64,000 nucleotides of DNA from Chitinophagales bacterium (GTDB lineage: Bacteria; Bacillota; UBA5301; DYFA01). The position numbers and the translations under genes were made by a program. Positions 25,100 to 25,330 of the stretch are shown piece after piece. The stretch's first letter is position 1. Each line of letters starts with the position of its first letter. Location of the stretch: contig JBLNBQ010000061.1 in NCBI GenBank assembly GCA_050260095.1, forward strand, positions 7,261 to 71,260, written 5' to 3'. The notes under the pieces were generated by a model. The model was given only the letters and a program-made list of their open reading frames with translations, did no database searches and had not been told where the DNA came from.

Positions 25100-25330
25100 A
25101 GAAAACAGCGGTCACTGGTACGAGCAGACGACACGCACGTTTTGACGCAGCAAGACCTGAGCCAGGACACGCACCTGTACGCACCACGAGACGCAGCAAG
25201 ACAGTCGCAGGCAACGCAGCTTAGACGCAGCAGACGACGGAGCAACAAACGCACCGCACCTACGCACTACTTCGCAGCACTGATCGGCGCAGCAAGGCAT
25301 CAGGGTCTGTCGCACCGTCGCACTAAGGCC
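25100..25330. repeat. Strand-asymmetric CA-rich low-complexity region with degenerate GACGCAGCA(A)GAC repeats
   Basis: The plus strand is almost devoid of T. The motif gacgcagcaagac occurs at 25144 and 25190, and gacgcagcagac at 25224. GC is lower than the surroundings. It sits in the 420-nt gap before an OMP gene. Confidence 0.4.

What the first reader, a model, noticed from the sequence alone, without database searches (positions are those of the whole stretch)
25100..25330. T-depleted CA-rich repeat island in a 420-nt intergenic gap
In a 70 % GC genome this stretch is strongly strand-asymmetric (ACG-rich, almost no T on the + strand) and carries degenerate repeats of GACGCAGCA(A)GAC. It lies between the DUF3084 gene and an OMP gene that has its own strong RBS. 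It could be an sRNA, a C-rich protein-binding leader, or a degenerate tandem repeat. The Cys-rich minus-strand ORF (25112..25369) is an automatic consequence of GCA repeats but cannot be excluded as a small Cys-rich peptide.
Basis: seen in the sequence. Interest (0 to 1): 0.5.

Follow-up and report, generated by a model that had tools for sequence, protein, structure and literature searches.

The report
Conserved RNA leader before OMP gene
The odd CA-rich, T-poor stretch is the unstructured middle of a conserved, previously undescribed RNA leader in front of an outer-membrane protein gene in a rare group of two-membraned Firmicutes, and it probably helps set how much of that protein is made.

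Summary
The island is real, but "almost no T" is overstated: T is 11% against a window mean of 16%, about the 9th percentile. What is exceptional is the tetramer CGCA, 15 copies in 210 nt against a window mean of 0.9.

The island (25119-25328) is not an isolated repeat. It is the interior of a roughly 390-nt noncoding element filling the DUF3084-OMP gap. The same element sits at the same place in all 11 other distinct syntenic loci recovered, which span two clades (68% and 54% GC).

The architecture is conserved:
- A 9-bp clamp stem, P1 (GGUCACUGG/CCAGUGGCU).
- A U-poor, A/C-rich interior of 76-210 nt that folds about half as strongly as genomic RNA and more weakly than its own shuffles.
- A 51-nt hairpin, P2, with a conserved 12-nt loop.
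- A pyrimidine tail, then the SD and start codon of the OMP gene.

The conserved modules are 76-88% identical, against 48-67% at four-fold sites of the flanking genes. G·U pairs place the RNA on the + strand.

There is no Rfam match, no conserved ORF, and no second copy in the window. The window copy is an expanded variant produced by internal duplication.

The best reading is a new cis-acting leader or intercistronic RNA that presents a single-stranded platform. The mechanism is inferred, not shown: ribosome standby or enhancer, Rho loading, or a specific binder.

The parts
23731..25011 (+). Upstream gene: DUF3084 coiled-coil membrane protein. It is the last gene of an LptC-LptA-LptB-LptFG-DUF3084 row.
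   Evidence: Pfam PF11283, E 2.7e-30. The same gene order is seen in L003, L005, L008, L010, L137 and L138.
25039..25090 (+). 5' part of the element with three conserved blocks: GCAAGCATTCCCGC (25039-25052), the SD-like GGGCAGGAA (25060-25068; GGCAGGAGA in relatives) and GGCGGTGAAGT (25080-25090). Its structure and role are unresolved.
   Evidence: Alignment A2 columns 28-79. Mean pairwise identity is 0.76 among the 9 close relatives. Folds differ between relatives, and the one block1/block3 pairing tested is broken in 5 of 10 sequences (and inspection of A2).
25110..25118 (+). P1 5' arm, GGTCACTGG.
   Evidence: It pairs with 25329-25337. The core GTCACTGG is invariant in all 12 distinct sequences.
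25119..25328 (+). It is 210 nt, A/C-rich and U-poor, and carries 15 CGCA units. It is predicted to be single-stranded. It is expanded relative to the 76-119 nt of relatives.
   Evidence: CGCA count and composition. MFE per nt is -0.22, against -0.44 +/- 0.06 for same-length genomic segments and -0.29 +/- 0.03 for its own shuffles. Internal duplication is shown by repeats at 25133-25156, 25179-25202 and 25275-25298 and by two overlapping profile matches.
25329..25337 (+). P1 3' arm, CCAGTGGCT.
   Evidence: It forms 9 bp with 25110-25118, including U·G (25112/25335) and G·U (25110/25337). On the minus strand these two would be mismatches.
25343..25393 (+). P2 hairpin. The lower stem is GGCGGGAAG/CTTCCCGTC, followed by a 2x1 internal loop. 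The upper stem is CGTTTGAG/CTCAAACG. The 12-nt apical loop GTAACAAGGAGA spans 25363-25374.
   Evidence: -27 kcal/mol. Inverted repeat I4. Covariance model R1 scores 70.8 bits on + and 18.4 on -. The apical motif GAGGNAAYNNGGNNNCTC occurs once in the window.
25394..25432 (+). Pyrimidine-rich tail TCCATTTGTCTCA (25394-25406), then the purine-rich SD region AGGAGAGCGGAGAGGAGGGGGCA (25407-25429), which precedes the TTG start at 25433.
   Evidence: Tail-to-SD pairing is predicted in the window and most relatives. SD accessibility is not distinct from neighbouring genes.
25433..26509 (+). Downstream gene: 358-aa putative outer-membrane beta-barrel protein of a very small family.
   Evidence: It has a signal peptide and a C-terminal F. 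Only 11 clusters exist in 5.8 billion proteins, and one of them carries PF13505 OMP_b-brl. The AlphaFold model is poor overall (pLDDT 44), but residues 185-358 are all beta-strands with pLDDT 65-76. The C-terminal 150 aa are homologous to the larger OMP-like gene behind the same element in L137 and L138.

Best explanation
The island is the central, single-stranded domain of a conserved cis-acting RNA. This RNA is transcribed on the + strand, either as the 5' leader of the OMP mRNA or as the intercistronic spacer of an lpt-DUF3084-OMP transcript.

**Shown in silico.** An invariant 9-11 bp clamp stem (P1) loops out 76-210 nt of A/C-rich, U-poor RNA that avoids self-pairing. Five to twelve nucleotides further on stands a stable hairpin (P2) with a conserved 12-nt loop. 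[quoted passage not shown]

**Inferred.** The clamped loop is an accessible landing platform in a genome whose RNA is otherwise tightly folded. I think it most likely recruits 30S subunits, as C/A-rich translational enhancers and ribosome standby sites do. That would boost, or make adjustable, translation of the OMP cistron independently of the upstream Lpt genes. P1 and P2 would hold the platform near the ribosome-binding site, and their invariant sequences suggest an additional specific partner. The window's extra CGCA units are a lineage-specific expansion of this platform by internal duplication.
For: - **Position.** The element is present at the same syntenic position in all 12 distinct sequences from two clades.
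- **Independent detection.** A profile built without the window finds only this locus in the 64 kb (E 9e-24 and 7e-8).
- **Selection.** The conserved modules are 0.76-0.88 identical, against 0.48 and 0.67 at four-fold sites of the flanking genes.
- **Pairing.** P1 and P2 are paired in 99.3% of cells, against 31-50% when partners are slid. All three variable pairs change through G·U.
- **Change between clades.** P1 goes from U·G to U-A and from G·U to U-A. The base of the P2 upper stem goes from CG/GC/U-A to GC/CG/A-U.
- **Second hairpin.** A hairpin with the same apical motif but an entirely different lower stem precedes the SLH-protein gene in L137 and L138.
- **Strand.** The G·U pairs, and 70-80 bits on + against 18-28 on -, point to the + strand.
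- **Unstructured interior.** The interior folds at about half the MFE per nt of same-length genomic segments in every locus. At most 8.5% of genomic segments fold as weakly. It is also weaker than its own shuffles in 12 of 12 cases.
- **U depletion.** U is 5-14% even in relatives whose loci have 23% T.
- **No terminator upstream.** Canonical terminators follow the OMP-like gene in L137 and L138, but none lies between DUF3084 and the OMP-like gene.
- **SD pairing.** An anti-SD:SD hairpin abuts P2 in L137, and similar pairing is predicted in most relatives.
- **Literature.** Single-stranded CA-repeat tails are the strongest standby sites tested, and C/A-rich upstream elements act as enhancers (PMC5934652). 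The tisB standby site is a single-stranded region plus a structured element (PMC6690012).
Against: - No transcript data exist. The transcription start, and whether OMP is co-transcribed with DUF3084, are unknown. No sigma-70-like promoter was found.
- Standby tails saturate at 16-18 nt in the experiments cited. That leaves a 76-210 nt platform, and the need for a clamp, unexplained.
- The OMP SD is not predicted to be more sequestered than the SDs of neighbouring genes (0.33 against 0.43 +/- 0.22 unpaired).
- The near-invariance of P1 and P2 and the conservation of the interior's 5' half (0.83) go beyond what a sequence-nonspecific docking site needs. They point to a specific partner.
- Within the close clade there is no compensatory covariation, because 23 of 27 pairs never vary. 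Structural support therefore rests on wobble changes and on a few between-clade changes read from only 2-3 divergent sequences.
Confidence: 0.35

Rival explanations
1. Rho-loading (rut) attenuator. The untranslated, unstructured, C>G interior is an entry site for Rho. Rho would terminate transcription before or early in the OMP gene and so set the ratio of Lpt/DUF3084 to OMP. P1 and P2, or factors bound to them, would modulate access.
For: - The interior is unstructured.
- The C/G ratio exceeds 1 in 10 of 12 sequences (0.94-1.62).
- The usual length of 76-119 nt suits a Rho hexamer footprint.
- The YGCA units recur mostly at 11-12 nt and multiples. That falls inside the (YC)N9-13 spacing used for Rho's primary binding sites.
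- %CA, %ACA and %CAC are among the sequence descriptors that best discriminate Rho-dependent signals (PMC6144790).
- The element lies in a long untranslated gap with no intrinsic terminator between the genes.
Against: - Rut sites are pyrimidine-rich, and B. subtilis Rho prefers short U/C-rich anchors (PMC12350095). Here purines make up 52-61% and U is specifically avoided, even in 54%-GC relatives.
- G is only mildly depleted (24-29%).
- C>G fails in L014 and L137.
- The periodic unit is YGCA, not YC, and YC density is modest at 6-14 per 100 nt.
- Whether these organisms encode Rho was not established. None lies in the window.
Confidence: 0.2
2. Binding platform for a specific trans-acting regulator. 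This could be an oligomeric or multidomain RNA-binding protein, or a G/U-rich small RNA, that reads the repeated (A/U)CGCA(G/C) units together with the invariant P1 and P2. It would couple OMP synthesis to envelope status.
For: - P1 and P2 are near-invariant in sequence, beyond what pairing alone requires. The interior's 5' half is 0.83 identical.
- Short motifs recur about every 11-12 nt.
- The P2 apical motif recurs in front of a second envelope gene, the SLH protein, in relatives.
- SD-like CAGGAGA-type motifs occur in the 5' block, the interior and the P2 loop.
- GcvB represses targets by pairing to upstream C/A-rich elements (PMC5934652).
Against: - No candidate binder was identified. No csrA or hfq was found in the DNA available, though that search covers only about 64 kb plus flanks.
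- CGCA units are few or absent in the 54%-GC clade: 1 in L137 and 0 in L138. The motif is therefore not universal, whereas the composition is.
- GGA is not invariant in the P2 loop (AGGU, UGGA and AGGC variants). This argues against a classical CsrA site.
Confidence: 0.25
3. A separate small RNA, or a long 3' UTR of the DUF3084 operon, that ends at P2 acting as an intrinsic terminator. The C/A-rich loop would be its seed region.
For: P2 is a stable GC-rich hairpin followed by a U-enriched tail (UCCAUUUU, UGGUAUUUUU) in every OMP-linked copy.
Against: - P2 fails the terminator scan: its loop is 12 nt and the U-tract is interrupted. The same lineages use canonical terminators elsewhere.
- Only 30-40 nt separate P2 from the OMP start in most relatives. 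That leaves no room for an OMP promoter, so the OMP gene would have no transcript.
- The P2-like copy before the SLH gene has no U-tail.
- No promoter-like site lies upstream.
Confidence: 0.1
4. The island itself has no function. It would be slippage or duplication debris tolerated inside a loop, and only P1 and P2 would matter.
For: - The window's interior is twice as long as any relative's and arose by internal duplication.
- The interior's 3' half evolves at about the rate of four-fold sites (0.46).
- The interior cannot be aligned between clades.
Against: - Composition (U 5-14%) and weak folding are maintained in all 12 sequences, across 68% and 54% GC backgrounds and despite sequence turnover. 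Folding is weaker than the sequences' own shuffles in 12 of 12.
- The 5' half is 0.83 identical, above four-fold sites.
Confidence: 0.07
5. A small Cys-rich peptide encoded on the minus strand (25112-25369), or another short ORF in the gap.
For: An 85-codon open frame exists on the minus strand.
Against: - The frame is not conserved. Interior lengths differ by 1-2 nt among relatives.
- Similarity is spread over all six frames, as expected for conserved nucleotides.
- There is no Pfam match.
Confidence: 0.02

Closest known systems
C/A-rich translational enhancers and ribosome standby sites (MS2 coat CA-tails; tisB standby site; GcvB-targeted C/A-rich elements)
   Same: Both are single-stranded, C/A-rich, U-poor RNA upstream of a ribosome-binding site next to stable structure. 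The tisB site likewise combines a single-stranded stretch with a flanking structured element (PMC5934652, PMC6690012).
   Different: This platform is 76-210 nt rather than about 16-20 nt. It is closed into a loop by an invariant long-range stem, carries a repeated CGCA unit, and is separated from the SD by a 51-nt hairpin. SD sequestration is not demonstrably unusual. No functional data exist.
Rho utilisation (rut) sites in regulatory leaders (e.g. Salmonella corA and mgtA, E. coli pgaA)
   Same: All are unstructured, C>G-biased, untranslated RNA of about 60-100 nt inside a leader, flanked by structures that could gate access (PMC5314796, PMC4052769 listed; PMC6144790).
   Different: This one is purine-rich and U-depleted rather than pyrimidine-rich. 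The periodic unit is YGCA, not YC. C>G is not universal.
ompA-type 5' UTR stabilisers and the Bacillus STAB-SD element (recalled from memory, not tested here)
   Same: Both are long structured leaders in front of an abundant envelope-protein gene. SD-like sequences (GGCAGGAGA; P2 loop AAGGAG) have no start codon behind them, as in STAB-SD.
   Different: There is no sequence or structural similarity to either. The 5' end of the transcript is unknown, so a 5'-terminal protective role cannot be assessed.
Rfam families (all 4227, release 15)
   Same: None.
   Different: No match reaches gathering score in the window or in 11 related loci. Within the gap the best E-values are 3-8.

Membership tests
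Any described RNA family (Rfam 15) | Covariance-model score at or above the family's gathering threshold | tested here: not met
   The window gave only a SAM riboswitch, elsewhere. The permissive scan of 24950-25500 gave a best score of 17 bits against thresholds of 40-60. Nine close relatives plus L137 and L138 gave no hits.
Ribosome standby site / C/A-rich translational enhancer | Single-stranded, accessible RNA close to the ribosome-binding site | tested here: met
   Interior MFE per nt is about half that of genomic segments and weaker than its own shuffles in 12 of 12 sequences. It lies 70-170 nt upstream of the start, with P2 in between. This is prediction only, with no probing.
Ribosome standby site / C/A-rich translational enhancer | A ribosome-binding site locked in stable inhibitory structure that the standby site overcomes | tested here: inconclusive
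   Tail:SD pairing is predicted in most relatives, and a 9-bp anti-SD:SD hairpin occurs in L137. Mean SD unpaired probability is 0.33, against 0.43 +/- 0.22 for 34 neighbouring genes.
Ribosome standby site / C/A-rich translational enhancer | Stimulation of translation initiation, abolished when the site is masked | not testable with these tools
   This needs reporter fusions, toeprinting or antisense masking.
Rho utilisation (rut) site | Unstructured RNA with C>G skew | tested here: met
   The interior is unstructured. C/G is 1.15-1.62 in 10 of 12 sequences, but 0.97 in L014 and 0.94 in L137.
Rho utilisation (rut) site | Pyrimidine richness with regularly spaced YC dimers | tested here: not met
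   Purine fraction is 0.52-0.61, U is 5-14%, and YC density is 6-14 per 100 nt. The regularly spaced unit is YGCA. Criteria are taken from PMC6144790 and PMC12350095.
Rho utilisation (rut) site | Rho-dependent termination downstream | not testable with these tools
   This needs in vitro transcription with Rho or in vivo Rho inhibition.
Intrinsic terminator / attenuator (P2) | GC-rich stem, 3-8 nt loop, uninterrupted U-tract directly after the stem | tested here: not met
   The terminator scan of 24700-25700 gave 0 sites. The P2 loop is 12 nt and its tail is UCCAUUUG. Canonical terminators exist elsewhere in relatives.
CsrA/Rsm-type multi-GGA leader | GGA in hairpin loops and over the SD, conserved | tested here: inconclusive
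   GGA-containing CAGGAGA-like motifs occur in the 5' block, the interior, the P2 loop and the SD of many copies. The P2 loop reads AGGU, UGGA or AGGC in several. No csrA was found in the DNA at hand.
Interspersed repeat / MITE bounded by inverted repeats | Multiple copies per genome | tested here: not met
   The 64 kb holds a single copy by profile, covariance model and arm-pattern searches. The syntenic position is fixed across clades.
Tandem repeat array | Head-to-tail copies detectable as a periodic array | tested here: not met
   TRF gives no array at score >= 30. Only 2-3-copy families of 9-24 nt at irregular spacing are found.
Small protein gene | An open frame conserved in length and phase among relatives | tested here: not met
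   indels are not multiples of three, and similarity is spread over all six frames.

The most novel reading that the evidence does not exclude
The element may be one half of a dedicated RNA-protein control system for outer-membrane protein synthesis in diderm Bacillota. In this reading, a clamp-presented single-stranded CGCA platform and the P2-type hairpin are recognised by a lineage-specific factor. The P2-type hairpin also precedes the SLH/OmpM-like gene in relatives.

The diderm-specific RuvX/YqgF-like nuclease encoded just downstream of these genes in the same cluster is an obvious but untested candidate for that factor. Such a system would tie OMP and OmpM output to LPS transport in a phylum that lacks the sigmaE/MicA-RybB circuitry of Proteobacteria.
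Probability: 0.12. Interest if true: 0.75.

Novelty: new variant of a known kind. Interest (0 to 1): 0.55.

Why it matters
Diderm Firmicutes (Negativicutes, Halanaerobiales, Limnochordia) are central to the debate on how bacterial outer membranes arose and were lost. Almost nothing is known about how they regulate envelope genes.

This element lies inside their ancestral outer-membrane gene cluster. It sits between the Lpt genes plus DUF3084, which Antunes et al. 2016 (PMC5007114) flagged as diderm-specific with unknown function, and an orphan OMP family.

A conserved noncoding RNA under stronger constraint than the synonymous sites around it gives a concrete handle on post-transcriptional control of OMP production in these organisms.

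Its design is also unusual for an RNA motif. The selected property of the largest domain is the absence of structure, together with U avoidance, and this domain is held in a loop by an invariant clamp. That makes it a natural test case for how single-stranded landing pads work in high-GC genomes.

The limits are real. The element is confined to a rare, uncultured lineage: the OMP family has 11 clusters in 5.8 billion proteins. The mechanism is inferred only.

Tried and rejected
- **Metagenome scan.** A scan for the P2 core (CGGGAAGNGCGTTTGAGG) returned 120 stretches. None has the rest of the hairpin or P1, so all are chance hits.
- **Wider OMP search.** A profile search with 11 OMP sequences found no further family members.
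- **Promoters.** No sigma-70 site was found in the window gap or in the AT-richer relatives. By eye, sigma-54-like GG-N10-GC and ECF-like TGAAGT-N-CGGTCA readings fail, because the spacing varies from 15 to 25 nt or the -12 GC is absent (from sequences).
- **5' region structure.** Folds are inconsistent among relatives. The candidate pairing of CAUUNCCG with CGGUGAAG is broken in 5 of 10 sequences at its only variable position (A2).
- **Alternative pairing.** A pairing of the P1 5' arm with the internal GCCAG is not conserved in L137 or L138.
- **Conserved mini-ORF.** A mini-ORF behind the SD-like GGCAGGAGA (GTG-AAG-TAG in the window, L010 and similar) is not conserved (read).
- **Other copies in the window.** The next-best covariance-model hit (35191-35272, 15.6 bits) is an unrelated terminator-like hairpin.
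- **Distant relative.** A Selenomonadales DUF3084 locus (L002) lacks the element.
- **Structure of the OMP.** The model was too poor (pLDDT 44) to justify a fold search. There was no PDB or NCBIfam match.
- **rho, csrA, hfq.** tblastn searches of the available DNA were negative, but this is uninformative given the small amount of sequence.
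Full report
**1. The observation**

The gap between the DUF3084 gene (23731-25011; PF11283, E 2.7e-30) and the next ORF (25433-26509) is 421 nt.

Positions 25100-25330 have A .29, C .33, G .27, T .11, against .16/.33/.35/.16 for the whole window. The A-over-T skew is among the three strongest in the window.

"Almost no T" is too strong. There are 25 T in 231 nt, and 8.8% of all 210-nt windows on either strand are at least as T-poor.

What is exceptional is a short motif.
- CGCA occurs 15 times in 210 nt. The mean over all 210-nt windows is 0.93 (sd 1.06), and no other place in the window comes near 15.
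- Shuffles of the island itself give 1.75 +/- 1.26, with a maximum of 6.
- The units read N-CGCA-[C/G]. Successive units are mostly 9-15 nt apart, or about twice that.

Neither occurs elsewhere in the window beyond chance.

Tandem Repeats Finder reports no array. The repeat finder gives only short 2-3-copy families. The repeat is real but very degenerate.

**2. What it belongs to**

I collected syntenic loci through homologues of the two flanking proteins.
- One GTDB genome came from a genome scan (L001).
- Eight further distinct loci came through the 11-member OMP family.
- Two more distant clades came through DUF3084 homologues of 55-58% identity (L137; L138-141).

Wherever the contig allows, the gene order is a glycosyltransferase on the opposite strand, then LptC-LptA-LptB-LptFG-DUF3084, a gap of 266-344 nt, the OMP, and a RuvX-like gene.

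This is the outer-membrane gene cluster of diderm Firmicutes described by Antunes et al. 2016. In that cluster DUF3084 (COG4372) and a COG0816 RuvX-like protein are diderm-specific, and LptD/E are missing (PMC5007114). Source labels on the relatives are Bacillota/Firmicutes, Limnochordaceae and Limnochordales.

Every one of these gaps contains the same element. In the window, the order from 5' to 3' is:
- Three conserved blocks at 25039-25052, 25060-25068 (SD-like, GGCAGGAGA in relatives) and 25080-25090.
- The P1 5' arm GGUCACUGG (25110-25118).
- The interior (25119-25328).
- The P1 3' arm CCAGUGGCU (25329-25337).
- A 5-nt linker.
- The P2 hairpin (25343-25393) with a 12-nt loop (25363-25374).
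- A pyrimidine-rich tail (25394-25406).
- A purine-rich SD region (25407-25429), then TTG at 25433.

A nucleotide profile built from the nine close relatives, without the window, finds the window only here. It gives two matches (E 7e-8 and 9e-24) whose model coordinates overlap at positions 95-127. Together with the 24-nt repeats at 25133, 25179 and 25275, this shows the window copy is an internally duplicated, expanded variant: 210 nt of interior against 76-119 nt elsewhere.

**3. Evidence that it is a functional RNA on the + strand**

*Selection.* Among the nine close relatives, pairwise identities are:
- 0.76 for the 5' blocks.
- 0.83 for P1 plus the 5' half of the interior.
- 0.88 for the P1 3' arm, P2 and tail.

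These compare with 0.48 at four-fold degenerate sites of the OMP gene and 0.67 for DUF3084. The 3' half of the interior, at 0.46, is about neutral.

*Not coding.* Interior lengths of 94, 95, 96, 97, 118 and 119 nt are out of phase with one another. Residual peptide similarity is spread over all six frames. The Cys-rich minus-strand frame is not conserved.

*Structure.* P1 and P2 are paired in 99.3% of cells of alignment A2, against 31-50% when the 3' partners are slid by 1-3 columns.
- 23 of 27 pairs never vary, so the close clade gives no compensatory evidence.
- All three variable pairs change through G·U.

Between clades the pairs are kept through change.
- In P1, U·G becomes U-A, and the outer G·U becomes U-A.
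- At the base of the P2 upper stem, C-G/G-C/U-A becomes G-C/C-G/A-U.

In L137 and L138 a second hairpin precedes the SLH-domain (OmpM-like) gene. It has the same apical motif (GAGG-NAAY-NNGG-NNN-CUC) and the same architecture, but a completely different lower stem. Covariance model R1 scores it at 46-54 bits.

*Strand.* The invariant U·G and G·U in P1, and the U-A/U·G alternation in P2, would be mismatches on the minus strand. R1 scores 70-80 bits on + and 18-28 on -.

*No known family.* No Rfam family matches the window or 11 related loci.

*Single copy.* There is only one copy in the 64 kb. The element is therefore not an interspersed repeat.

**4. The island's own selected property**

The interior is U-poor (5-14%) and A/C-rich in all 12 sequences. 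This includes the 54%-GC clades, whose loci have 23% T and whose interior cannot be aligned with the high-GC clade.

Its predicted folding energy per nucleotide is about half that of same-length segments from the same locus. At most 8.5% of such segments fold as weakly, and in most loci none do. It also folds more weakly than its own mononucleotide shuffles in 12 of 12 cases.

What is conserved over the long term is therefore single-strandedness and U avoidance, not sequence. Within the high-GC clade the 5' half (ACGCACCACGCCAGGCACCAGGAGACGCAGC..AGUCGCAGG) is also conserved in sequence.

YGCA spacings cluster at 11, 12, 24 and 35 nt. Many of these positions are homologous among relatives, so they are not independent observations.

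**5. Context of expression**

No sigma-70-like promoter and no intrinsic terminator is found in the gap.

In the AT-richer relatives, canonical terminators follow the OMP-like gene, but none lies between DUF3084 and that gene. P2 stands only about 30-40 nt before the start codon in most relatives. OMP transcription must therefore pass through the element, either from the lpt-DUF3084 operon or from an unrecognised promoter in the 5' blocks.

The pyrimidine tail after P2 can pair with the SD. Examples are a 9-bp hairpin in L137 and similar pairing in the MFE folds of most relatives. However, the SD is not predicted to be less accessible than those of 34 neighbouring genes: 0.33 against 0.43 +/- 0.22.

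The downstream gene is plausibly an outer-membrane beta-barrel.
- It has a signal peptide and a C-terminal F.
- One family member carries PF13505.
- Residues 185-358 are all beta-strands in an otherwise poor model.

Its C-terminal 150 residues are homologous to the larger OMP-like gene behind the element in L137 and L138. The element is thus linked to one gene family.

**6. Mechanism**

All of this section is inferred. The element presents a long, nuclease-poor (U-depleted) single strand in a genome where such RNA is otherwise essentially absent. It does so next to the ribosome-binding site of a probably abundant envelope protein.

*Standby or enhancer (confidence 0.35 for the whole statement).* The best-documented function of single-stranded C/A-rich RNA in that position is translational enhancement or ribosome standby. 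CA-repeat tails were the strongest standby sites tested, and GcvB targets C/A-rich enhancers (PMC5934652). The tisB standby site combines a single strand with a structured element (PMC6690012). I take this as the most likely role. Three things count against it: the platform's length, the clamp, and the unremarkable SD accessibility.

*Rho entry site (0.2).* This fits the lack of structure, the C>G bias in 10 of 12 sequences, the length and the 11-12-nt period (PMC6144790). It conflicts with the purine richness and the U avoidance (PMC12350095).

*Specific protein or sRNA partner (0.25).* This best explains the invariance of P1, P2 and the 5' half of the interior, and the recurrence of the P2 loop before a second envelope gene. 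No candidate was identified.

*Other rivals.* A terminator-ended sRNA or 3' UTR (0.1), a functionless loop (0.07) and a peptide (0.02) are less likely, for the reasons given under rivals.

**7. Novelty and verdict**

The island is the expanded single-stranded core of a conserved noncoding RNA element that matches no Rfam family (no literature search for the element itself was made). The element lies in the outer-membrane gene cluster of a rare Limnochordia-like lineage.

In kind it is a cis-acting mRNA leader, which is a known category. Its architecture is unusual: a clamp around a platform selected for being unstructured, followed by a hairpin module that recurs before envelope genes.

The mechanism and even the transcript boundaries remain untested. 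Structural support rests on few divergent sequences. Interest is 0.55.

Noticed in passing
L137 8726-8789; L138 8556-8619 (also L139-L141): A second hairpin carries the same 12-nt apical motif (GAGGAAACAAGGGUACUC / GAGGAAACACGGACACUC) and the same architecture as P2, but a completely different lower stem. It sits about 45-50 nt upstream of the SLH-domain (OmpM-like) gene. This suggests a hairpin module shared by envelope-gene leaders.
   Followed up: partly
window 25433-26509: The OMP belongs to a tiny orphan family: 11 clusters in 5.8 billion proteins, with no Pfam, NCBIfam or PDB match for the window protein. It always lies directly after LptC-A-B-FG-DUF3084. Diderm Firmicutes are reported to lack recognisable LptD/E (PMC5007114), so a role at the outer-membrane end of LPS transport is conceivable but untested.
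   Followed up: partly
window 39367-39470 (+): A SAM-I (S-box) riboswitch, RF00162, at 82.8 bits (gathering score 44.4). This is consistent with a Bacillota origin of the window.
   Followed up: no
window 55000-55300 (+), inside ORF 54516-56306: This is the most T-depleted stretch of the window (2.5% T). It is coding: an (A/E/K)-rich low-complexity linker (AEAEARAKAEAEAKAKAESEAK...) inside a 596-aa protein. From its sequence I take the C-terminal half to look like a secretin, but this was not checked.
   Followed up: partly
window 23731-25011 (protein P0012): NCBI labels the identical protein as coming from a 'Chitinophagales bacterium' MAG. One close relative is labelled Betaproteobacteria, and L001 is titled Aneurinibacillus sp. 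The remaining named relatives are labelled Bacillota/Firmicutes or Limnochordia, and the gene content fits that assignment. These labels look like mis-assignments of MAG bins.
   Followed up: no
window 26552-26971 (+): A RuvX/YqgF-like gene (PF03652, E 1.3e-5, below the Pfam cut-off) directly follows the OMP gene. The same arrangement follows the SLH gene in L138-L141. It corresponds to the diderm-specific COG0816 paralogue noted by Antunes et al. As a putative nuclease next to two leader-bearing genes, it is a candidate partner of the element.
   Followed up: no
window 25084-25092: A mini-ORF GTG-AAG-TAG overlaps the conserved block GGCGGTGAAGT. GTG-AAG is conserved in most relatives, but the reading frame behind it is not: it runs 2 to more than 90 codons.
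   Followed up: partly
window 37640-37950: This is the third strongest A/T-skew region of the window, A-poor on the + strand. It appears to lie within a minus-strand coding region. It was read only as sequence.
   Followed up: no
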